The notes below the pieces were generated by a model that worked only from the letters and a program-made list of their open reading frames with translations, was not told the DNA's origin and searched no databases. A DNA stretch of 64,000 nt from the human T2T-CHM13v2.0 reference genome, Homo sapiens: NCBI RefSeq assembly GCF_009914755.1, contig NC_060936.1, one strand, 5' to 3'. The translations under genes and the position numbers were made by a program. Positions 25,111 through 38,584 of the stretch are shown piece after piece; positions within the stretch are counted from its first letter, which is position 1, and each line of letters begins with the position of its first letter.

Positions 25111-27479
25111 ACCTCCCCACCCCTGCTCGAAGCCCCTCCTCTTCTAGGTGGGTTGTTTAGTTCCTATCACCAGTTCTTCACAAATCTGCTTTACCCCCGA
25201 CAGCCTACAACCCTTGTTCTCCAAAACTCCTGTTGACCTCCGTCCCTTTCCCTTCCCACTTTCTCCCTAGTCCCTCCGCTCCCCACAAAGTCCCCCAAAC
25301 CATTCTGTCCCTCTCCCTCTGCTCCCCACCCACCCTCCCCCACAACTCCTGCTGAAACAGATGAATTTCACCAAAAAAGACCATCAGACTTTCCCCAAGC
25401 AGGCCCCCACTGTGCCTGATCGCACACCCCCAGGGGAGGCACCACAGTGGCTAAGCTGGAGACCCAGAAATAAAATCCTCATTCTACTTCCCTGCCCCCT
25501 CTTCCCATCACTCATCTGGGAATCCAGGGCGAAGAAGGGAGCTAAAGTGCAGAGCATTCATTTAATATTAACAAATCGAAATGAATTCTTTTAATGCCAA
25601 TTAACTTCGAGCGGCCCCTTATTAATAGTAATTTAGATTCATACTTGGGAGAAACAGGGACGGGGGCTGGGCCAAATGTGCCCAGAATGTCAATGTGACT
25701 GGGGAACTGAAAGGGGAGGGGGGCAGTTTTACTTCTGCCCAGTTGGGTTCCGTTTCCCTGAGAGAAATGGATAGTCACTGGAGGCGGACCTTTGGGAAAC
25801 ACGAATTACTCTTGTAATTTTATTTTTGTTACTTCAAGGAATCTGAATAGTTTGAAGCCATGTCACACCATTTTAATAGTTTATTTTCACAGTAATGCTA
25901 AAAAGAAGAATTTCCTCAGAGCTGGGATTTACTTCAAACTCTCTCCTAAGCCAAACCTTACTGACAAAAGGGACAAGTCCCCAGGCCAGCTCTCTACCCT
26001 TCTTTGTTCAGAGCTAGAGCCAGAGATCAATATGGGCTTCCCCAATCCCTGCCCCTTCTACCTTAACCAAAACTAAAAGGAAGAATCAACACTGTGTGTC
26101 TCTCTGAGAAGTCTCCCCCAGGAGGTAAAAGACCCAAGGGGCTGACCCCTAAGCTGTTCAGCTTACATTTAAGGAAGAAAAACAATCTGCCTGCACTTTT
26201 CTTAGAATTTAGGGAAAAAATGAGAATTTAAAATTCAATTTCATGTATCAGAGTTCTCCAGAATACAGCCAAGTGTAAAGAACTTAGTCCCAAATGAAAA
26301 AGTTGAACAGAAATTCTGCTCTCACTCGTTTTGCCGGCTTGGAGGTCAGACTGGAGGTGTCCTGAACTAGAACCAGAGCATAGGTTCTGACCCAAGAAGG
26401 ACACTGTCTACTTCCCAGGCATCCCTCCTTGGCTGGGAGGAGAGGGGAGGATGAGTCCGTTGGAAGCTGAGAATTGTGGAAGCTGGAGATGGGAGTTCTG
26501 AGATGGAGGAGGCAGGCGCGTGAAGGAGGTCAGGGAAAGGCAAGTAAATCTACTAACCATTGAAGTTTATAAAATAAAAACCTTAAAAATGGTTTAACAT
26601 GCAAAAGGTTAAATTTTAAAAAGAGGCCAGGTTTTAAAGAAGGTAAAATACCTCAAATTTAAACAAATAAAAACGAGGAAAATACACAAAACATTTCAAG
26701 CAAATTGTTCTTCAGAAGAGGAGAGGTTGGAATTAATCAAAAGACCTTTTTTACACACACACACCCCCCAAGAGTTTCCCAAACAATAAATTCATTTACA
26801 AAACAAAAAGAGGAATCAACGCAAAACCTCATCCACACACAGAGGAAAATAAATTGTGGTGATTCTGTAACAGCTGAAAAACTAGTGAGGGAGGAGAAAA
26901 ATGAATAAACTCTAAATCTATTAGGTGATATTTATAAATAGCAAAATTGGAGGATGGAATGGAGAAAGGAGTTGAACTTATCATTAAAGAAGTAACACAT
27001 GTGAAAACATAAGGTGTAACTCATCCCCAAAGAAAAGTAAACTCTCCATAAAGTAGCAAGTATACAAATTTATTGAAAAGGAAGAAAGTACCACTCACCC
27101 CCCCCAATATAAGTGTATTAATTTGAATTAAAATTTTCTCCAAATCCAAGATAGGTTACACAAAAGAATACAAACATATTTTTTTTCTTTCAACTAAGAG
27201 GAAAAACAAAATCCGATTTAAATTCACGAATGGGACAGGAAGGGAGGCTGTGGTTTGCAGGTGCTAGTAAACGGGGTGAGGGTTGTGAAGAGTTTGAGGG
27301 GTAGAGGACCAGCTTACCTCGCTTTGGAGCCGCGGCGGCCAACAGGAGTGGGCCAAGGACCCTGCCAGTGCCTGAGTGATAGGGGAAATAAGGAATAGGG
27401 GATTCGGGTGCCCCTAGACGAATGAGGAGGATGGAAAGACTGGGGGTGCCCATCTCCCCTCCTCTGCCCGCCTCCCTCC

Positions 27480-27620
27480 CTCCGGTACCCAGGCCTAGAG
27501 AGCTACTGAAAGTTACAAATTGCTTCCATTATTAGCTCATCCCGGGCGGCCTGGTCATTGGCCAGCCCCTGGCCACGTGGTCCCTCGTACCAATCGATCG
27601 AATTCTAGTCGCAATTCTCT
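27480..27620. promoter_or_regulatory. CpG-island promoter, probably bidirectional: inverted CCAAT (27557), E-box CACGTG (27574), CCAAT (27590)
   Basis: Motifs read directly; flanked by divergent consensus splice donors (- strand 27317/27318, + strand 28170/28171). Confidence 0.7.
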
Positions 27621-27725
27621 GTCTGTCCCTCGGCTCTGGGGAGAAAGGGGGGGCTGTGGCGTGGGGGCTGAGGAGGGGCTAAGGCGGGAGGGGCGCCTCA
27701 TCCCTTCACCCTCCCTTTTCGCCAT

Positions 27726-28170
27726 GTGGGGGCCCTGAGCGCCGCCCCAGAAGAGGTCGAGGGAATGTTGTGGGCTGGGGCACACCAGCACGGCAGAAAC
27801 TGGAGAAAGCGAGAGACGTCGCCAGGGACCCAGGGACCTCTCCCTCCAGTTCCCCGGGCCCGCCCGGCCCTGATGGCCACTCACGCTATAGCGCCCACTC
27901 TGTCCTGGGCCATCCCGCGCCAGCAGTGTAGCCCCCAGCCCGGGCGCCTGAATGCTCTCCCTCCGGATCGCTGCTCGGGTCCCCACTTTGGCGACCGTGC
28001 CCCCGAGTCCTGCTTCCCCGGGGCCTGCTCTGTATCAGGCGCCTGCGCCTTCAAGGGTACCCGGCCCGCCTGCCCTCCCCAAGAGCCGAGTTTGCGCTCC
28101 TCCCGGAATCGTTTGAGAGAAGGACAAACTTTTGGCAGGATGGAAATCTAGATGAGCCTGTCCGGAGCAG
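27726..28170 (+). pseudogene. Exon 1 relic of a paralog-group-1 Hox gene (putative HOXC1), hexapeptide region
   Basis: CAA ACT TTT GGC AGG ATG GAA ATC TAG ATG AGC CTG TCC GGA GCA G|gt = QTFGRMEI*MSLSGA-G versus Hox1 QTFDWMKVKRNPPKT-G, same spacing and phase-1 intron; 5' boundary uncertain. Confidence 0.8.
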
Positions 28171-30333
28171 GTAAGCTGGGCCCGGGACGGGTGCGATTCA
28201 GCCCGAGAACAATCTGTCTCTCCCCGTCCCGGTCTCTCCCTCCCCTTACCCCTGTTTCCCCTGCAGGCTGACATATTAATCTGCCTTCCCCCGGGAGAAA
28301 TTTGGGCTGGGGTTGGGCTTCTGTCAGATGCATGGGGTCAGAGCAGCTTTCCTCCCCGAGTTTAGGGACTAAGGTGGTAGCTGGCAGGGGAGGGGGAGGG
28401 TTGCTTCCGAAACTGAGGATTGAGGGGAGGGTTAGGGGCCGAGAAACCCAGAGTCTGAGGGAGACGACTTCTTTCCTCAAACGCAACTTGGGGGAACTTC
28501 GGAAAAGTTTTTTGAGGGGAGATGGAGAAGGGAGCGGAGTTGGGGTTTCGAGGGCTAAAGTGGGAGAGAGGGTGCTCCGCTTCCCGTACTGAAGGAAGGA
28601 TGTGTGTGCTTATTCCCCAGTCGGGACCGATTACCAGCCTAGAAAAACCCAGCCGCGTCCCAAACCCGCTCACCCCAGCAGGCCCTTAGAGACGCTTGGA
28701 GATCCCCAGACACGCCCCGCGGAAAGGGAAGGAAATGCCAGCCCGAGTTGCCGACTCTGCCGGGACGGGGCGGGGGATCCGCCCAGAGCGGTCCCCTGCT
28801 GTCCTGGGCCCTTACGTTGATTCTAAGTTAGGAGTGATCTGAGAGAGGGAATAACTCCCAAAAATCTTTTTTTTTTTTTTTCTGAATCCAATTTGAGTCA
28901 GAGACCCATTTCCTTGAGATGGAGCCAAGCGAGTGCCCCCTCCCGCCTCCAGCACAATCTCCCGCTCTTCTCCAGTTCCCAAAGGAGGGCAAGGAAAAGG
29001 CCCCTACTCTCCTCCCAGGGCTGAGATTTCCTCCCCCACCCAAGAGATGCCCCAGGAGGAAGGAATGGAGAGGTTCTTCAAAGGGCAGTCAAGAGCAGAG
29101 GGTGGGTTCAGAGGTCACAGCTGAACTTGGGGCCCAGGACAAGGGGGAAGGGCGGGCCCAGGCCGGTGTAGAAGCTGCGGGGTGGCCTGGGGAAGTGGAC
29201 AAGGGCAGAGGCCGCTGCAGGTGTTGGGGGGTACCCTGGAGCCCGGGGTGTTCCTGGGCGGGGAGGTCCAGCCAAGCGGCAAGGGTCTGCGCTGTGCCTT
29301 TAGTTTTTAGGTTGGGCCCCTCCTGGGGAGCACCCAGCTGGAGGAGCCAGGCAAGTGGCAGAGGACACCTTCCGACTCCTTGGAAAGGGCCAGGAAGCGA
29401 TCTGGATCCTAGGAGAGAAAATTCCTACGTGGAACATGTGGTGTTCTGGCCCTTCCTGGGTAGACACCTGCAGAGGCCACTTGGCCCTGCCGGGTCAGAA
29501 GCCACAAATCTGCCCAGGCCTTTGTTTTCACTATTCCTGAAGTTTTTCTGCTGTGGCCCAGCACCTGCCCTGGCACCTGCTCGGCATCTGCTCATTGGCA
29601 AGCCCCGGACGGAGTTGGACTGGCCTAGCTGAGAGGTTTAGGAGGGCTTCCGCTGGCACTGCCAACAGGGAGTTTGGCTTGGTCCCCCAAAAAAAGGGCC
29701 TTTGAGAAGGACATGTCCAGGGGCAGACACGAAATCCACTGATACGCAAAACGAATGTAAACCCTTTTCTTTCCTCACATCTTGTGGCCCTTCACACCTC
29801 TGCAGTTCAGAGGATTTGGAATGGAAGGCCTCATCCATCCCCAGTCCCAAAGCAAACGTGGGAGCCAGCTTGGGCGTCTTCTTGCAGGCTGCTGGGGCTT
29901 TGTGTGCTCTGAGAGAAGATGTCTGGTCCTCTGCCTACCCCACTCCCCCTTTGATGAATGTGGTCCTTTTTGCTCCTGCCTCTCCAATACTACCCCTCGC
30001 CCCACCCCCCCACCCCCAACCCAGTCCCACAGATCTATGGGACTATCTCTCTTTTTCTCTTTCCTTGCTCCTCTTCCCCTTTCTTCTTAGGATTGATGGA
30101 CTGACAGCAGTTTGGCAAGGCTTCCCTAAGCCTGTAATAGGGAGCTGTGGACCCAGCCCTGACTTCTCAAGTAGGGGGAAACAGCTCTATTCCCGGGCCC
30201 TTGAGATTGAGTCTCAAGTTGACAGGAGTTGAGAAAGAAATGCATGAAGGATGGCTGGGCTTACGCAGGACAAAAACCTCTACTGGGGAGGGGCCAGTTT
30301 TGTGCCTTGTGCCTACTGCTGAGAGGGAATTTA

Positions 30334-30960
30334 GAAACAAAGGAAGATAAGAAGAAGGCCTAGGGAAACAGCATAAAGGACTGGAAAAATTCAGAACAGC
30401 AAAGAGAAAAAACTGGGAGAGAGGAAAAGATGTGAAAAGGCCCTAATGCTGGAGACAGAAAGGTATTCTGGAAGGGTGGCTGGGATAGAGATAACATGAA
30501 AGGAATATTGATAAAGAGCAGAAGGAAGAAGCAGGACTAGGTTTGTTTGGGTTTTTAAGATTAGAGATAGTCTGGGGCCTGTTAAAATAGAAAATAGAAG
30601 AAAAAAGATTAGAGATAAAGACAGAAAGGAAAAGAAAAGAAAAATAGGGAGAGAAACAGAAAGCAAATGAAAGGAGAGAGCTAGAGAGTAAAAGAAAAAG
30701 GAAGGGAAAGAAAGGGAGGTAAAAGTGAGAAAAAATAAATGGAAGGGAGACAGAAAGATAGGTAGAAAAGGAGGAAAGACAGGGACAAGGGAAAGAAGCA
30801 AGGACAGGGGAAGGAATGGAAGAAAAAGAGAAAGTGAAGGTAGGGCAGAAATGAAGCAAAAGAAGGAAGGAAAAATGAGAAATGAAGATACAGTGAGATA
30901 AAGAAGGAATAAGGGGAGTGAGGGGAAGGCGGGTAGAGAGAGAGAGAAAGAGAAACACGA
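30334..30960. repeat. GA-rich low-complexity polypurine tract
   Basis: About 0.6 kb of mostly A/G on the + strand (core about 30586-30958). Confidence 0.9.
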
Positions 30961-31121
30961 ACTCAACTAAGGTTAACGGTTAACAGAAAGGGGATCCCGG
31001 TTCCTGAGGAGCACAGGGAGGAAAGAGGAGATGGAGGGTGAGCAGAAAGGCCAGTTGGGGCCCCTCCCCGCCTCACCTTGGGCTGCGGAGGCCCTGACCG
31101 CCACCACTCCGCCGTCTCTAG

Positions 31122-31510
31122 GGCCCAGACCTGGGTGATGGCTGCCTGTGAACCGTGGGAGGTAGAGGCAGGGGCTGGCTGCCTGCATACGGGCTTCTCT
31201 TCTCGAAGCAGCTGAGCGAGCTGGAGTTCTTCCTGCAGCCCTACCTGCCCCCGACACAGCACGCCAAGCTGGACACATGGCGTTGAGGCTGTATGACATG
31301 CAGGTCCAGATCTGGTTCCAAAAGGCGTGCATGAAGTACAAGAGGCCAGTGAGGCAGGAATTGTTTGTGGATTCCCACCCTGGCGGCCCCTCTCCCGGGC
31401 TCAATCCTCTCACCCGCAGCCCCAAGTGCCTCCATTCCCACCCTACTGGCAGAGGCTGTCTGAAGACTGGGCAGCTTTGTTCCGGGCTCGGGGGTGCTCT
31501 GGTTCTGTGA
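31122..31510 (+). pseudogene. Exon 2 relic: frameshifted homeobox of a paralog-group-1 Hox gene (putative HOXC1)
   Basis: Branch-like CTGAC 31094 and acceptor AG 31120-31121; frames LHTGFS (31183-31200), SKQLSELEFFLQPYLPPTQHAKLD (31203-31274), [23 protein letters not shown] (31277-31345) align to [55 protein letters not shown]. Confidence 0.88.
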
Positions 31511-33250: not shown

Positions 33251-34378
33251 TTAATCATGATTATGACCTTCACATCCCCTTGGCTCACCCCTAGACAATT
33301 CTTCCCCACTCCCAGCCATCTGCAAACCACAGTCAGCCTGTCCCTGCTCCCAAAAATGGAATTGCTGATGCCCTCAAGGCTGTTACTCTCCCAGGGTGAG
33401 TGAGAGTGAGGTCAATGGCGCCAGGTCGGAGCCTCAAACTCTTAAATAAACAAAGCATATTTCCCTATTCCTGATGCAGTTGGGGGTCATCTATCCCTTG
33501 GAATGGAGAGGCTGGCAATTCTGGCTCTTGGCTATCTTTCCACAGAACACCCCTGATTAGCCAGGCCCACCGCCATCCACATCTGCTCGGCAAAGAAGGA
33601 AGGCAGCTTGTTCCAGACCTTGGTGAGCAGCTGCAGACTGCCTGCCTAGAACAGCCTCCTTACTCCAGCCTGGCAGGGAAGGAAGGAACCTGACTTGCTT
33701 CGCAGGATCTGGAAGCTCAGCCGGCAGAGCTGAGAGCCGCAGTTGCATCCTGGAGCCTGATGCTAGAAGCAGCTTCCGTCTTTGGGTTCTTGCTGCCTCG
33801 GCCTCTGCTCTGTTCAGTTTGCTGTTGTGTTTTTCTCCCCCATGTTGGGGTGGTGGGGTACAGGGAAATAAAATGCTTTCTCCCAGGCCCCTAATCCTTC
33901 CCCATGCCTCCATCAGCCTCAAAGCTGCTGACAGTCATGAACTGCACCTTCCAGCCCTGCCCATAAGCTACTCAAAGCAAATTCAAATTCTCTTCTGGCC
34001 AGGAGGAAGGGCAGATGCTCCCTCCTTCCTCAAGCCTCCCTGGCTCATTGATCCATTTTGAGGGCATTTGGGGGTCAAAGTTGAGACCAGATTGCTTCAG
34101 TTTGTATAAAATTAGCATTTCTTATCACACCAAGGCCACACCTGTTCTCTGGCCTCACAAACCAGTGAGGATGTAAAGGTTTGTTGAGGTGGAGGAACAG
34201 AAGTGAAATGAGCAATCTGCTCCATTTAGAAGTCAGTCGCTTCGGCTGTTCATTCCACTAATATTTATCTAGTACCTATTCTGTGCCAAGCATTGTCTCT
34301 ACCTCAGTTTGCCACAAATATGAAAAAAAAAAAATTCTTGGAACTGTGAGGCTTCAATGTGTTGTGGACCAATATACA

Positions 34379-34384
34379 AATAAA
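34379..34384 (+). terminator. Polyadenylation signal AATAAA of the lncRNA terminal exon (alternative AATAAA at 33867)
   Basis: AATAAA followed about 16 nt later by GT-rich sequence. Confidence 0.6.
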
Positions 34385-37300
34385 CCAATGGAAAAGAAAG
34401 TGTGGTTCGGAGTCAGCTGATTTTCATTGCAGCTTTCCATGTGCTGGGTCTAAGAGCCCCTGACTTCCGAGCTCCAGCTACCCAGCCCCAGCTGGTTGAC
34501 AAGCAGGACTTCCCTGGGGCCCATTTGTTTTTCCCACTGGAAAAATGTTAGAATGGGAGCAAGAAGCCTGTGCTGGGATCAACCGCCATGAAAGTCCCAA
34601 AACAAAGGGTTTGGGATGGGCGGCGGTGGGGCCCTCCCAAACATTGCTCCGTCAGAGGTGAGGGAGGGTAGGGGTGATGTGATACGTTTCTCCAGGTTGC
34701 AGAGCAGGTCTGTGAGTTTGCCTTGGTGTAATCACGTGCCTGAAGGTGATAACAAGGGTGTGCATGTGTGAGTGAGCTGAAGGGGGGCAGAGAAGTGTGC
34801 CTGTGCCAGGCTTGTGTACACCGGGCCCAGATGCCTGCACAGGTGCCAGTGTGTGTGTGTGGAGGGGGATAGAGGTGCCTGCAAATCTGAACATGTCTCT
34901 CCATATGTGACCCTCAGTGTATGTGAGAGTGTGTGTACCCGCTGAATTATGATAAAATTACACCGACCCTTACAGAAAATCCATAACAGCCTCGGCCTTT
35001 CTCCCCCGACCTCTCGACCTCTGGGGTGCCTGAGGAAAGGGTTGACCTGGTCACTGCCTCCTCCTAGTCAATGAGTCCCCCTCCATTAGCATAAAACATG
35101 AATCTGCTGGCAGCTTGACAAATTATAACTAGCAGCCAGAGTTTTGCCAACTGGCTGGCTTGGGTGCTGTCTATTTATCATTGAAAATGGTAAATCATAA
35201 GAATCCAGATGACTTAATTATTCAAATCCACCCAGGACCCAGAGAAGCTGCAGGCCCGTCAATCTCAGCCCTGGGCTCACAGAGAAGAGTGGGGGAAATG
35301 CTGTGAGCTTGTGAGCTGGAAGAAGCAGGTTCCATTGCCGCCTCTCCCCTACCCAGAGAGCAGGATTTTTCTCTGCAGCCCCTTCCCCTCCCTGCCGTTC
35401 TGCCCACCTTTCCAGCCAGAAGCCCGGCCAATTGTTTTGGTTGCTGGCCTCCCAAGGCTCTCCCTCGCACGCCTCCCGCTGCCCACCACCCGCTCCTCAA
35501 GCTCAGCCAGTGTTTCCCGGCCTCTCTTTGTGTGGATGTTAGCTCTTTCTCTCTGTTTCAGTGCCCTCATTTTTATTTCTTCTCTTTCTCCTATTCCTTT
35601 CACCATTTCTCTTCGTCTCTCCTCTGCCCACAGATAGACACTGAGCCCCGCACAGGGCCTCTCTGGTGGAGTTTTGCCTGCTCTCCTGGCCCCTTTGTCC
35701 TCACTGTCCCAGAGGTGCCAGCTCAGGATCCCCACGCATACGCACCCCAACCTTAACCCAGCGCTCCGAGTGCTAGAAGGCCTGAATTCGCGTCTCTCTG
35801 CTGTGGGGCCATATGGAAACACACATGTCAGTGGATAATACTGGGCCTGCCCCCACACCCCATACACACAACCTTTCTGTCCCTTTCTTCCGTGGATTTC
35901 TAACTACCATTATGCACAACTTGGGAGGTAGTGGCCAGGCTGTCAGAGATGTGCCCGGACCACTGAGGCAGGGCTTCGTCTCAAGAAGGCCCATCCCTCA
36001 CTCCCAGCATGGAACTACCTCAAGCCCCAGCAGAGGGATTGCTCAACATGAGCTTTCCCAGAAGGAGAAGAAACCCTGTTTACAGAACAAGTCCTAGATC
36101 CAGAGGTCTGCACACTGAGCTTCTGGGGGGCCCTTTGATGTTTGGGTCCTTTTATCTTTGTGTCCCTCACAGTCCAATATAAATATGTCCTACTTTTTCT
36201 TGCAGTCCTGGACCCCGTGAGAAATTTATGCCCTTCTAGACCCACAATGGCAGGTGGGAGGCACATATTCACCAATGCTGATATTGCTTTGACCCCAGAG
36301 GGGAATGTGAGGAGCAAGGAGGTTGCCAGAGCCCCTCTGCTTGAATGGCATCCCGGTCTATTCTTTTGGAGGGCTTGCTTTACCTGTAAGGGCCCTGGAG
36401 GCTCCTCAGAGCCACTTCTGTGTCTGCAGATGCTTGTCAACTTGGTTCTGGGATTCAGTTTGGCTTTGTCGGGGTGTGTGTGTGAGCACGTGCACACCTT
36501 TCGTGGATAACCTGGAGTCTTGACATACTGATGGGTCGTGCCTGGTGGCGTGCATGCCTGCACAAGTGCGCCAGTGCCCCTGATGTGTATGTGGGTGAGT
36601 GTGTATGTGTGCATGAACACACACTTCCAGAAAGAGCCCTTGTGCTGAAACAACGAGTGACAATGTCCCCACCAACAGGACACCTGAGGAAACAGCCCTC
36701 TCCATTCCATTTTAAGGCCTCTGAGCAATGTTGTTGTCAGTGAAATATTGGACTTGGCATATCATAAAACCTTAAAGAAGGAGCTACCTGTTTCTGCTAC
36801 TGAAAGTAAGTTCTTCCTAGAGTCTAGCCTTCTCTTCTTCTTTCAGGGCGGAATATGAGCATAGTCAGAAATCTCGAGAGGGGGCTCCCTACTCCTCCAA
36901 GAGAACATACGTGACATATAGGGAGCCCTTCCACAGCCAGGCTCATCCCCACAGCTTAAACACTTCATCCCCTCACTCTTCCCTTCTTCTCCACCTTTCC
37001 AAGCCAGGGTGATATTTGACAAGGGCAGTGGCGAGGGGTGAAACTTGGGGCGGGTGGCTGGGGGAAGGATAAAGATTCAAAAGCAGGCCAAGCTGCTGGA
37101 AGGCAGGAGATCAATAAGGGGAGACAGATTGGAGACAGGTTTCTCTCACTACTTCCCCACCCCTCGCTGGCTCAGCACCCCCGCCCCAGCTCCTGAAAGC
37201 AGGTGGAGGACAGAGCCAAGCACTGGCCTCTCCCTGCCCTTCTAACTCAAACAGGTTCCTAATCCCTGGGTAGAGGGTAAACAGCCTCTAAGCACGGCCA

Positions 37301-38584
37301 GGATTAACCACAGAAATGCCGCTAATGTATTTCGGGGCACTGCTCCCTGCCCCTACCCCCACCCTGTGTTACTAATTAGCCCAGCAGCAGGGAGAAGCTT
37401 GGGAGGAGCAGCTCAGAATGCCTTTGTGCAGGCTCTGAAAGCACAGGTCTGGGCTCTGGACAGTGTCTCTGGTGCTAGACAAGCTGGGGTGGCAGAGGAT
37501 TCCCGCCCCCTCCCCGCCACTCCTAAATCAGCTCAAAGGCAGACAGGTTTTTCTCTGTGCCCTTCCTGAATCCCCATCTCTCCTTTCCTGTTCACAGCTG
37601 GGAGGCAGGTGGGGGACAAGAGGGAGAGTGGAACCGGCTCTGGAAATCAAACGATGCAATAAAAAATTAATTGTCTAATTAAAACCATGAGGAAGCCCCT
37701 TGCCAGAGTTTGGCTCTGAGTCGTCAGGGCTATAAAGGGTGGGAAAATGAGTCTCAGCTCCTAATAAATTCCTGATTTGCAGCTTGGTCTATCAGCAAAG
37801 GAGCACTGAGCGTTCCACTGGCTAGGCCTCCTGGAGGTCATTCCACCCTCTCTCTGCCCCAACCCAGCCATCACACCCAAAATCCTACACAAGCCCACAG
37901 TCAGGGTTTCCCCAAAAGGAGAGAAAGCGGGGACCCTCAGTCTCCCTGATCTGATGCTTACCCATTTCTTCCTGGTCTTTCCTCGGGAAAGGAAAGTTCT
38001 GGAAACTTCCTCAACCAAAGAGTTCTTCATTTAGGTTAACTAATAACTGTATGAACAAGTTTGCTATGTAGGTTCATTTTGACCTCACCTCTTCCACTTT
38101 TGTGAAAAGTATAATTTATGAACTGATTTATGATTCCCTCTCTTAGATCTTAGTGCTGATTTTTGCAGGTGAATGACAGAGAACCAAGCTAAGAAATTAA
38201 TCTCCCCTCTAAAAGAGGGCTGTGCACCCTGCCCAGTTGACCAAATCCTCTGGAAGAATGAACACAGAGCTAGTCCAGAAAGGAGTGCAGAGTTAGGCAA
38301 CTCTCATGGGCAGATGGATGCCCAAACCTTCTCCCTGAATCACTGAACCATTTCTTCACTTGGGTCTGCCTGTGTAGACACAGGCTCCATGCCTCTATTC
38401 CCTCCCTTTCTTGGCAAAAACAAATGCATTATACATCATCAGAGGTATTAATTCATAATAACAGCGGGAGGAGGTAGTTAGCATACTGCCTTCAACATCA
38501 TATTACATTATTTTATTATACAGAATGCAATATGAACTCTATATCTGTGATTGGCTTCTTTAAACAAACATGGCAGAACAAACA

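What the first reader, a model, noticed from the sequence alone, without database searches (positions are those of the whole stretch)
31094..31345. Frameshifted homeobox whose decay carries a CpG-deamination signature
Seen: repairing two 2-nt slippage insertions (TC near 31201, AC near 31275) and a 6-nt deletion (ELE[KE]F) gives [55 protein letters not shown]. Several lost invariant residues are CpG transitions: R5 CGT>CAT, R30/R31 CGG CGC>CAG CAC, T43 ACG>ATG, R53 CGC>TGC. F8, K11, the inferred T43 and QV-IWFQ favour PG1 over PG2/PG3, although the MKYKR end alone would fit PG2/PG3. Splicing from the phase-1 donor gives G-P-R-P-G-stop (31136-31138), so another lesion lies in the linker. Inference: this exon became methylated and drifted neutrally while exon 1 stayed in a CpG island.
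Basis: partly seen in the sequence, partly recalled or inferred. Interest (0 to 1): 0.85.

Follow-up and report, generated by a model that had tools for sequence, protein, structure and literature searches.

The report
Dead HOXC1 gene inside LINC02381
This is the decayed remnant of HOXC1, the fourth "group 1" HOX gene that humans are said to lack; its homeobox is a frameshifted wreck, but the end of its first exon and its splice site still serve as exon 1 of the lncRNA LINC02381.

Summary
A homeobox lies in three reading frames at 31177-31351 (+). It is broken by two extra dinucleotides (31204-05, 31275-76) and a two-codon gap. In a frameshift-aware search, 31 of 31 human homeodomains had their best window hit there (57-94, against at most 52 in 40 shuffled windows).

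The homeobox alone does not fix the paralogue group: my PG1 model scores 40.4 bits, GBX 39.3 and PG3 32.4. An upstream piece settles it. Window 28128-28170 plus the GT is the best of 127,912 window positions for the last 43 nt of HOXA1 exon 1 (hexapeptide to donor). It matches PG1 genes at 22-28 of 43 nt and PG2-5 at 12-19. Its donor (28170|28171) is the annotated 3' end of LINC02381 exon 1. This is an unprocessed HOXC1 relic, and the lncRNA reuses its 5' exon and donor.

The CpG-deamination claim is arithmetically possible but not demonstrated. At 97 informative sites there are 15 transitions and 18 transversions, with no CpG excess (Fisher p=0.36). The relic keeps a CpG o/e of 0.47, twice the window background. 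I found no paper describing a human HOXC1 relic. It is a new member of a known kind, of moderate interest.

The parts
27531..27563 (+). Tentative relic of the start codon and N-terminal motif (ATT where PG1 genes have ATG)
   Evidence: 20 of 33 nt identical to the first 33 coding nt of HOXD1. It is one of 3 positions in the window, both strands, that reach this level. It lies 597 nt (199 codons, in frame) upstream of the hexapeptide relic; the same distance is 609 nt in HOXD1 and 591 nt in HOXA1. Post hoc and tentative: the sum over three paralogues ranks only 46th in the window.
27629..28170 (+). LINC02381 exon 1 (RefSeq NR_026656.1), inside the CpG-rich block at about 27200-29000
   Evidence: Hub annotation table. 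GC 0.67 and CpG o/e 0.61 for the exon; 27500-28800 has GC 0.62 and o/e 0.61.
28128..28170 (+). Relic of the last 43 nt of HOXC1 exon 1, from the hexapeptide (TF..M) to the phase-1 end; holds an in-frame TAG at 28149-28151
   Evidence: Identity is 28/43 to HOXA1, 24/43 to HOXB1 and 22/43 to HOXD1, against 12-19/43 for ten PG2-5 genes. With the GT added, it ranks 1 of 127,912 positions for HOXA1 (30/45), ties best for HOXB1 (26/45), and ranks 1 for the sum of the three (80/135).
28171..28176 (+). Splice donor GTAAGC, the ancestral HOXC1 donor now used by LINC02381
   Evidence: Sequence. It coincides with the 3' end of LINC02381 exon 1 in the hub table. It sits the same number of codons after the hexapeptide as in HOXA1/B1/D1.
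28171..31121 (+). Former HOXC1 intron (2951 nt), now the first part of the LINC02381 intron
   Evidence: Inferred from the flanking relics. CpG o/e 0.34.
31120..31121 (+). Candidate ancestral acceptor AG after a pyrimidine-rich tract (inferred, not shown to be used)
   Evidence: Sequence. Read in phase 1 it runs into TGA at 31136-31138, and 62 nt separate it from homeodomain codon 5, so the linker holds a further frame lesion.
31177..31203 (+). Homeobox relic, homeodomain positions 2-10 (first frame)
31204..31205 (+). Extra dinucleotide (+2 frame shift) in a TTCTC-TTCTC run
31206..31274 (+). Homeobox relic, positions 11-17 and 20-35 (second frame); 6 nt (positions 18-19) missing between 31226 and 31227
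31275..31276 (+). Extra dinucleotide (+2 frame shift) in ACAC
   Evidence: The placement is not unique: other alignments put the shift at about 31267-31273.
31277..31351 (+). Homeobox relic, positions 36-60 (third frame, helix 3 with WFQ); N51, R52 and R53 are lost
   Evidence: Pfam PF00046 E=6.2e-4. tblastn gives E=1.4e-4 for HOXD1, 0.007 for HOXA1 and 0.013 for HOXB1, and the HOXD1 hit is the best in the whole window. 54 PDB sequences match at E<=1, nearly all homeodomains, including HOXB1 1b72.
33546..34399 (+). LINC02381 exon 2; the transcript skips the homeobox relic and splices here
   Evidence: Hub table; AG at 33544-33545.

Best explanation
The finding is the homeobox exon of an unprocessed (unitary) pseudogene of HOXC1. 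HOXC1 is the paralogue-group-1 gene of the HOXC cluster. The relic lies in its original place, about 73 kb 3' of HOXC4 and on the HOXC strand.

The gene had the usual two-exon HOX1 layout. Exon 1 ended with the hexapeptide and a phase-1 donor at 28170|28171, followed by an intron of about 2.95 kb. Exon 2 carried the homeodomain at 31177-31351. The coding capacity is destroyed. There is an in-frame stop in the hexapeptide region, at least three frame lesions and a 6-nt deletion in exon 2, and the DNA-contacting residues N51, R52 and R53 are lost.

What still works is the 5' end (partly shown, partly inferred). The CpG-rich promoter region is transcribed as LINC02381. That transcript's first exon ends exactly at the old HOXC1 donor, skips the dead homeobox exon, and splices to a newer exon at 33546.

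The homeobox relic appears to be decaying without protein-level constraint (inferred). CpG transitions probably contributed to the decay, as in any mammalian pseudogene, but they are not a demonstrable signature here.
For: Homeobox is real:
- 31 of 31 human homeodomains peak at 31345 (+) with scores of 57-94, against a shuffle maximum of 52 (n=40).
- Pfam hits one frame piece at E=6.2e-4.
- tblastn finds its best window hit here.
- A profile built from 31 human homeodomains scores the coordinate-built read-through at 43.4 bits, E=3e-12 among 2137 window ORF pieces. The untouched frame-c ORF alone scores 22.2 bits, E=1.2e-5.

PG1 assignment:
- Per-group profiles give PG1 40.4 bits, against PG8 32.8, PG3 32.4, PG2 28.6 and PG4-7 25-26.
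- The exon-1 end matches PG1 at 22-28/43 nt and PG2-5 at 12-19/43.
- That site ranks 1 of 127,912 window positions.
- The donor lies the same number of codons after the hexapeptide as in HOXA1/B1/D1, while PG2 and PG3 have no donor there.

Unprocessed and in situ:
- An intron is retained, the strand is that of HOXC4-13, and the relic is the 3'-most element (hub table; coordinates).
- No present-day human homeobox is closer than 59% at the nucleotide level.

Link to the lncRNA: LINC02381 exon 1 ends at 28170 (hub table) and GT follows.

Literature frame: HoxC1 is functional in coelacanth, lungfish, caecilians and some lizards. It was therefore present in the amniote ancestor and was lost separately in mammals (passages read in PMC3038165, PMC4470032, PMC9498476 and 10.1101/2024.09.03.611012).
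Against: - The homeodomain alone does not separate PG1 from GBX (39.3 bits; 24/57 identities) or clearly from PG2/3 at nucleotide level. The C-terminal MKYKR resembles PG2/PG3; none of 211 PG1-like homeodomains fetched has Y56.
- The exon-1 relic is not found by an nhmmer profile of the PG1 junction (no hit at E<=10). A protein-level alignment of the hexapeptide region scores 21-26, below the background of 35-45. Its support rests on an ungapped nucleotide scan and on the coincidence with the donor.
- The rest of exon 1 shows no credible similarity to PG1 proteins. The weak P/S/A-rich tblastn hits lie in other frames.
- No true HoxC1 sequence from another species could be obtained. Orthology therefore rests on synteny and paralogues only.
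Confidence: 0.85

Rival explanations
1. The relic belongs to another lost HOXC gene (HOXC3 or HOXC2), not HOXC1. HoxC3 was lost later than HoxC1 in the textbook scenario, so a recognisable relic would be less surprising.
For: MKYK at homeodomain positions 54-57 is the PG3 pattern. Nucleotide identity to HOXA3 and HOXB2 (0.591) is slightly above that to PG1 (0.544-0.585). Review passages state that HoxC3 was lost independently in mammals (PMC3707753).
Against: - The hexapeptide-to-donor stretch matches PG1 at 22-28/43 nt, HOXB3 at 19/43 and PG2 at 15/43. PG2 and PG3 have no donor at that place.
- F8 and K11 are PG1 states.
- The PG1 profile beats PG3 by 8 bits and PG2 by 12.
- First and second codon positions: 70-72/114 for PG1 against 64-67 for PG2/3.
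Confidence: 0.07
2. The homeobox relic is not drifting freely. It is kept as a non-coding functional element (an enhancer, a Polycomb/CpG element, or an alternative LINC02381 exon), which is why it is still recognisable.
For: CpG o/e is 0.47, about the 88th percentile of GC-matched 175-bp windows (median 0.21, 90th percentile 0.51). The relic is still detectable although the gene is absent from all mammals according to the papers read. RefSeq enhancers flank it at 28003-29273 and 34224-35148 (hub table).
Against: - The Jukes-Cantor distance is 0.45 at formerly constrained sites, and the transition:transversion count is 15:18, which looks like old, saturated, unconstrained decay.
- There are three or more frame lesions in about 230 nt.
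- No RefSeq functional element overlaps 31094-31351 (hub table).
- Cross-species conservation could not be tested here.
Confidence: 0.12
3. A retrocopy or segmental copy of another homeobox gene (for example HOXD1 or GBX) landed here by chance.
For: The best single-sequence scores come from GBX1/2 (94) and HOXD1 (88). The closest of 318 fetched homeodomains is a protein that its source names turtle Hox-D1, at 27/57.
Against: - A PG1-type exon-1 end with its donor lies 3 kb upstream on the same strand, so an intron is retained.
- The GBX score needs 4 frameshifts.
- Identity to every candidate parent is at most 59% nt.
- The location and orientation are exactly those expected for HOXC1.
Confidence: 0.03
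4. Chance similarity; there is no gene relic.
For: Each frame piece alone is short. 2 of the 3 pieces give no Pfam hit.
Against: Scores of 82-88 against a shuffle mean of 42-44 (sd 3.8, maximum 52, n=40). All 31 queries hit the same place. An independent exon-1 relic ends exactly at an annotated donor.
Confidence: 0.01

Closest known systems
HOXA1, HOXB1, HOXD1 (human paralogue group 1 HOX genes)
   Same: Two-exon layout. The hexapeptide is followed by a phase-1 donor at the same codon distance. Homeodomain states F8 and K11, and helix 3 with V45 and IWFQ, are PG1-like. The relic sits at the 3' end of its cluster on the cluster's strand.
   Different: It is not a gene any more. There is a stop in the hexapeptide region, at least three frame lesions, a 6-nt deletion, and N51/R52/R53 are lost. 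Only 22-24 of 57 residues are identical. The intron is about 2.95 kb.
Functional HoxC1 of coelacanth, lungfish, caecilians and some lizards (from the literature)
   Same: The expected orthologue: the 3'-most gene of the HoxC cluster. The lizard gene also has a large intron of almost 9 kb (PMC9498476 passages).
   Different: Those genes are intact and expressed, and the human one is a wreck. No HoxC1 sequence was available to me, so the orthology is by position only.
Hox pseudogenes left in place (psi-HoxD12 of the caecilian, HoxA7 pseudogene of bichir)
   Same: A decayed Hox gene remains at its cluster position (PMC4470032 and PMC1845163 passages).
   Different: This one is in the human genome, which the papers I read describe simply as lacking HOXC1.
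lncRNAs born from dead protein-coding genes (Xist from Lnx3; recalled, not checked here)
   Same: The promoter and a 5' exon of a pseudogenised coding gene persist as the start of a spliced lncRNA.
   Different: Here only the last 43 nt and the donor of the exon are shown to be inherited. Any function of LINC02381 rests on cancer-cell studies, of which I read passages of one (PMC8363838).

Membership tests
Homeodomain (Pfam PF00046) | Score over the Pfam gathering cut-off (22.9 bits) | tested here: not met
   Frame c alone scores 20 bits, E=6.2e-4, covering profile positions 36-57. The other 2 of the 3 pieces give no hit. The read-through was not sent to Pfam. A profile of my own, built from 31 human homeodomains, gives it 43.4 bits.
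Homeodomain (Pfam PF00046) | One open frame of about 60 residues with W48, F49, N51 and R53 | tested here: not met
   The domain is spread over three frames with a 2-codon gap. W48 and F49 are kept; N51 is K, R52 is A and R53 is C. It is a relic, not a working member.
Hox paralogue group 1 | PG1-diagnostic homeodomain residues (F8, K11, T14, A29, T43, Q56) | tested here: inconclusive
   F8 and K11 are present. S14, T29 and M43 are one step from the PG1 state. Y56 is not PG1: 0 of 211 PG1-like domains have it. The PG1 profile is best among the Hox groups (40.4 bits), but GBX scores 39.3.
Hox paralogue group 1 | Hexapeptide TFDWMKVKR-type motif with a phase-1 donor 13 codons after the F | tested here: met
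   28128-28172 matches PG1 at 22-28/43 nt and PG2-5 at 12-19/43. GT is in register. The site ranks 1 of 127,912 positions. Protein-level and nhmmer tests were not significant.
Hox paralogue group 1 | 3'-most position in a Hox cluster, on the same strand as the cluster | tested here: met
   The relic is on the + strand, about 73 kb 3' of HOXC4 (C12:54020444-54020614). No other homeobox was found in the 43 kb between them or elsewhere in the window.
Unitary (unprocessed) pseudogene | Disabling lesions, retained intron, no intact copy at the locus | tested here: met
   Stops at 28149-51 and 31136-38, at least 3 frame lesions, and a 2.95-kb intron between the relics. No coding gene is annotated here (hub table).
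Unitary (unprocessed) pseudogene | A functional orthologue exists in other species | not testable with these tools
   Known only from papers. No HoxC1 sequence was retrieved.
CpG-decay (methyl-cytosine deamination) signature | Excess of CpG-to-TpG/CpA changes over transitions at other sites | tested here: not met
   2 of 8 invariant CpG sites show transitions, against 13 of 89 other sites (Fisher p=0.36). Overall there are 15 transitions and 18 transversions. Of the CpGs in each paralogue, 4/13 (A1), 4/8 (B1) and 5/10 (D1) are TG or CA in the relic. The sample is small, so a real effect is not excluded.
CpG island (Gardiner-Garden and Frommer criteria; recalled) | Longer than 200 bp, GC above 0.5, CpG o/e above 0.6 | tested here: met
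   27500-28800: 1301 bp, GC 0.62, o/e 0.61, which is borderline. The homeobox relic has GC 0.58 and o/e 0.47 and does not meet the criteria.

The most novel reading that the evidence does not exclude
LINC02381, a lncRNA studied in several cancers, is the surviving 5' end of the fourth human HOX1 gene. Its promoter region, the end of its first exon and its splice donor descend from HOXC1. HOXC1 would then have stayed a working gene in the synapsid lineage after the split from reptiles, and would have been turned into a non-coding transcription unit rather than deleted. If so, the lncRNA may still carry HOX1-type regulation, such as early anterior and retinoic-acid-responsive activation at the 3' edge of the HOXC domain.
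Probability: 0.45. Interest if true: 0.6.

Novelty: new member of a known kind. Interest (0 to 1): 0.45.

Why it matters
Reviews and genome papers state that humans, and mammals in general, have 39 HOX genes and simply lack HOXC1. A recognisable in-place relic shows that the gene was not deleted. It gives a sequence whose shared lesions could date the loss once other mammals are compared. It also fits the newer view, from lizard genomes, that HoxC1 was still present in the amniote ancestor. Finally, it gives LINC02381 an origin: its first exon ends at a HOX1 splice donor. This is a tidy case of a developmental gene turning into a lncRNA, but it does not change how HOX clusters are understood.

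Tried and rejected
- **Second relic (HOXC3).** I scanned the 43 kb between HOXC4 and the window start, and the rest of the window. The best + strand hit, at C12:54060464-54060601, scored 48-52, within the shuffle range, and its sequence looks to me like an interspersed repeat. Rejected.
- **Minus-strand homeodomain-like stretch at 38322-38433.** Score 57, but only E=0.07-0.19 against my own profiles. Not significant.
- **Exon-1 junction by other methods.** nhmmer with a PG1 exon-1/intron junction profile gave no hit at 28128 at E<=10. Protein-level alignment of the hexapeptide region scored 21-26, below background.
- **N-terminal SFLEY-type motif.** The sum over three paralogues ranks only 46th. 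Only the HOXD1-based match at 27531 stands out, and I keep it as tentative.
- **Obtaining real HoxC1 proteins.**
  - The HOXD1 exon-2 query returned Hox-D1 and fused models in its top 120.
  - The relic ORF as query returned nothing.
  - The 150 unnamed representatives held three homeodomains sharing the relic's rare P27. The closest, P0186, is named Hox-D1 of a turtle by its source.
  - No HoxC1 reference was obtained, so no tree was built.
- **DNA local alignment to PG1 homeoboxes.** Only helix 3 aligns.
- **Not available or not useful.** Feiner and Wood 2019 (Evol Dev), which may discuss relics, is not held. A bacterial promoter scan was a wasted call with no bearing on the finding.

Full report
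**What is there.** Window 31177-31351 (+) reads as a homeodomain spread over three frames. It places a +2 shift at 31204-31205, a two-codon gap at homeodomain positions 18-19, and a +2 shift at 31275-31276. The repair is not unique. PG4-8 queries place the second shift some 5-10 nt earlier, and GBX reaches its score with four shifts. It lies 62 nt from homeodomain codon 5, so the linker holds at least one more frame lesion.

**Is it more than chance?** Yes.
- I took 31 human homeodomains from the window's own genome (gene names are my inference from cluster order). All 31 have their best hit in the 64-kb window, both strands, ending at 31345 (+). Scores are 57-94, against 35-57 for the next best place.
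- In 40 first-order Markov shuffles of the window, the maximum per 128 kb was 44.1 +/- 3.8 (maximum 52) for HOXD1 and 42.5 +/- 3.7 (maximum 51) for HOXA1. The relic scores 88 and 82.
- Pfam Homeodomain hits the third frame piece alone at E=6.2e-4 and 20 bits, under the 22.9-bit cut-off. The other 2 of the 3 pieces scanned gave nothing.
- tblastn with six PG1 exon ORFs gave 13,499 rows at E<=1000. The best row of all is HOXD1 against 31283-31390 at E=1.4e-4, with HOXA1 at 0.007 and HOXB1 at 0.013.
- A profile built from the 31 human homeodomains scores the coordinate-built read-through at 43.4 bits, E=3e-12 among 2137 ORF pieces of the window. The untouched frame-c ORF scores 22.2 bits, E=1.2e-5. 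The read-through E-value is flattered because its frames were chosen to fit a homeodomain.
- PDB sequences matching frame c at E<=1 number 54 and are nearly all homeodomains, including HOXB1 (1b72, E=0.065).

**Which homeobox?** The homeodomain alone does not decide.
- Identities are 22-24 of 57 to PG1, 21 to PG2 and PG3, 24 to GBX1/2, and 17-21 to the rest.
- Nucleotide identity is 0.544-0.585 to PG1 and 0.591 to HOXB2 and HOXA3.
- At first plus second codon positions PG1 leads slightly, 70-72 of 114 against at most 69.
- Per-group profiles give PG1 40.4 bits, GBX 39.3, PG8 32.8, PG3 32.4, PG2 28.6 and PG4-7 25-26.
- F8 and K11 are PG1 states. Y56 is not: 0 of 211 PG1-like homeodomains fetched carry it.

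The decisive evidence lies 3 kb upstream. Window 28128-28170 reads, codon for codon, as a mutated TFDWMKVKRNPPKT-G end of a HOX1 first exon, with an in-frame TAG at 28149-51, followed by GTAAGC.
- In register it matches HOXA1 at 28/43 nt, HOXB1 at 24/43 and HOXD1 at 22/43. Ten PG2-5 genes match at 12-19/43.
- I scanned all 127,912 positions of both strands with the 43 nt plus GT. Position 28128 (+) is the single best for HOXA1 (30/45), ties best for HOXB1 (26/45; 3 positions reach it), is one of 12 positions for HOXD1 (24/45), and ranks first for the sum (80/135).
- The donor sits the same number of codons after the hexapeptide as in HOXA1/B1/D1. PG2 and PG3 have no donor there.

Two other tests did not see this site. 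An nhmmer profile of the PG1 junction gave no hit at E<=10. A protein-level alignment scored 21-26, below background.

A possible start-codon relic lies at 27531 (ATT; 20/33 nt to HOXD1's first 33 coding nt; one of 3 such positions in the window). It is 597 nt upstream and in frame; the corresponding distance is 609 nt in HOXD1 and 591 nt in HOXA1. This is post hoc and I keep it as tentative. The rest of exon 1 shows nothing credible.

**Link to the annotation.** The hub table gives LINC02381 exon 1 as 27629-28170 and exon 2 as 33546-34399. The lncRNA's first exon therefore ends exactly at the old HOX1-type donor (GT at 28171-72). The homeobox relic lies in its intron, and the transcript splices to an exon 2.2 kb beyond it (AG at 33544-45). 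FAM242C starts antisense inside the same exon (27885-27953, minus strand).

**The CpG claim.** The cited codons are correct, and four of six conserved Arg codons have become H, Q, H and C. The ancestral codons, however, are assumed.
- At position 31, HOXA1 and HOXB1 use AGG. At position 43, only HOXD1 has ACG.
- At 97 first or second codon positions invariant among HOXA1/B1/D1, the relic differs at 33, with 15 transitions and 18 transversions.
- The four invariant CG codon starts (positions 5, 28, 30, 52) became CA, CC, CA and GC. Transitions hit 2 of 8 CpG sites against 13 of 89 other sites (Fisher one-sided p=0.36).
- Of the CpGs present in each paralogue, 4/13 (A1), 4/8 (B1) and 5/10 (D1) are TG or CA in the relic, and 0, 0 and 1 are still CG.

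The pattern is compatible with CpG decay, which is expected in any mammalian pseudogene, but it cannot be told apart from plain saturated decay.

The composition contrast is modest. CpG o/e is 0.47 in the relic (7 CpGs in 175 bp), 0.61 in 27500-28800, 0.34 in the intron and 0.22 in the window. GC-matched 175-bp windows have a median of 0.21 and a 90th percentile of 0.51. The relic is thus less CpG-depleted than its surroundings, which does not fit long, fully methylated neutral drift. Methylation data are not available here.

**Age (inference).** The Jukes-Cantor distance at those 97 sites is 0.45 substitutions per site. This includes any divergence of HoxC1 before it died. With mammalian neutral rates of roughly 1-2 x 10^-9 per site per year (recalled), this means some hundreds of millions of years. 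That is old, and compatible with a loss early on the mammalian stem. It cannot be dated without other genomes.

**Literature.** I read passages only, not whole papers.
- Liang 2011 (PMC3038165), Wu 2015 (PMC4470032), Pascual-Anaya 2013 (PMC3707753), the lungfish genome paper (PMC7875771), the elephant shark survey (PMC1845163) and Singh 2020 (PMC7706710) all describe HoxC1 as lost or absent in mammals. None mentions a relic.
- The Darevskia genome paper (PMC9498476) and the chameleon preprint (10.1101/2024.09.03.611012) report HoxC1 in lizards. They conclude that it was in the amniote ancestor and was lost repeatedly.
- The two human homeobox catalogues do not contain the word HOXC1 (PMC2211742, PMC4584094).
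- Full-text searches gave 3 papers for 'hoxc1' + 'pseudogene' (whole word), none about a human relic; 1 paper for 'hoxc1' + 'mammals' + 'pseudogene'; and 0 papers for 'linc02381' + 'hoxc1'.
- The LINC02381/HMS paper does not contain the word 'pseudogene'.
- Feiner and Wood 2019 is not held, and subscription journals are not searched. 'Not in print' therefore means only 'not in this library'. I opened no supplements.

**What could not be done.** No HoxC1 sequence from any species was obtained with the three protein searches and the representative search. The closest fetched homeodomain (27/57) belongs to a protein that its source names Hox-D1 of a turtle. Orthology, shared lesions, constraint and ancestral CpGs therefore remain untested.

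Noticed in passing
window 38322-38433 (minus strand): A weak homeodomain-like stretch resembling helix 2-3 of PG4-type HOX proteins. The frameshift-aware score is 57 with HOXC4 (shuffle maximum 52, measured for other queries), but E is only 0.07-0.19 against my own profiles. Probably chance.
   Followed up: partly
outside the window, C12:54060464-54060601 (window -3536..-3399), + strand: The best homeodomain-like hit in the 43 kb between HOXC4 and the window (score 48-52 with PG3-5 queries). It is within the shuffle range, and the sequence looks to me like an interspersed repeat. No HOXC3 relic was detected anywhere in the 43 kb or in window 1-27000.
   Followed up: yes
window 27885-27953 (minus) versus 27629-28170 (plus): The first exon of FAM242C lies antisense inside LINC02381 exon 1. 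Both lncRNAs therefore start within the CpG-rich remnant of HOXC1 exon 1 (hub table).
   Followed up: no
window 27557-27594: ATTGG (27557-61), CACGTG (27574-79) and CCAAT (27590-94) lie just upstream of the LINC02381 start at 27629. They would fall inside the presumed old HOXC1 coding region.
   Followed up: no
window 30390-30980: A purine/pyrimidine-rich low-complexity tract in the former intron. It produces long artefactual minus-strand ORFs of 178-191 aa and has almost no CpG.
   Followed up: no
window 27672-28151 (+): A 159-codon stop-free frame in the same frame as both the hexapeptide relic and the tentative start relic at 27531. It shows no detectable similarity to PG1 exon-1 proteins, and an open frame is not surprising at 67% GC.
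   Followed up: partly
PDB hit 8pjx_A for window 31271-31357: The best PDB match of the helix-3 piece is a designed protein named SAKe6FR (E=1.1e-4), ahead of all natural homeodomains. Unexplained.
   Followed up: no
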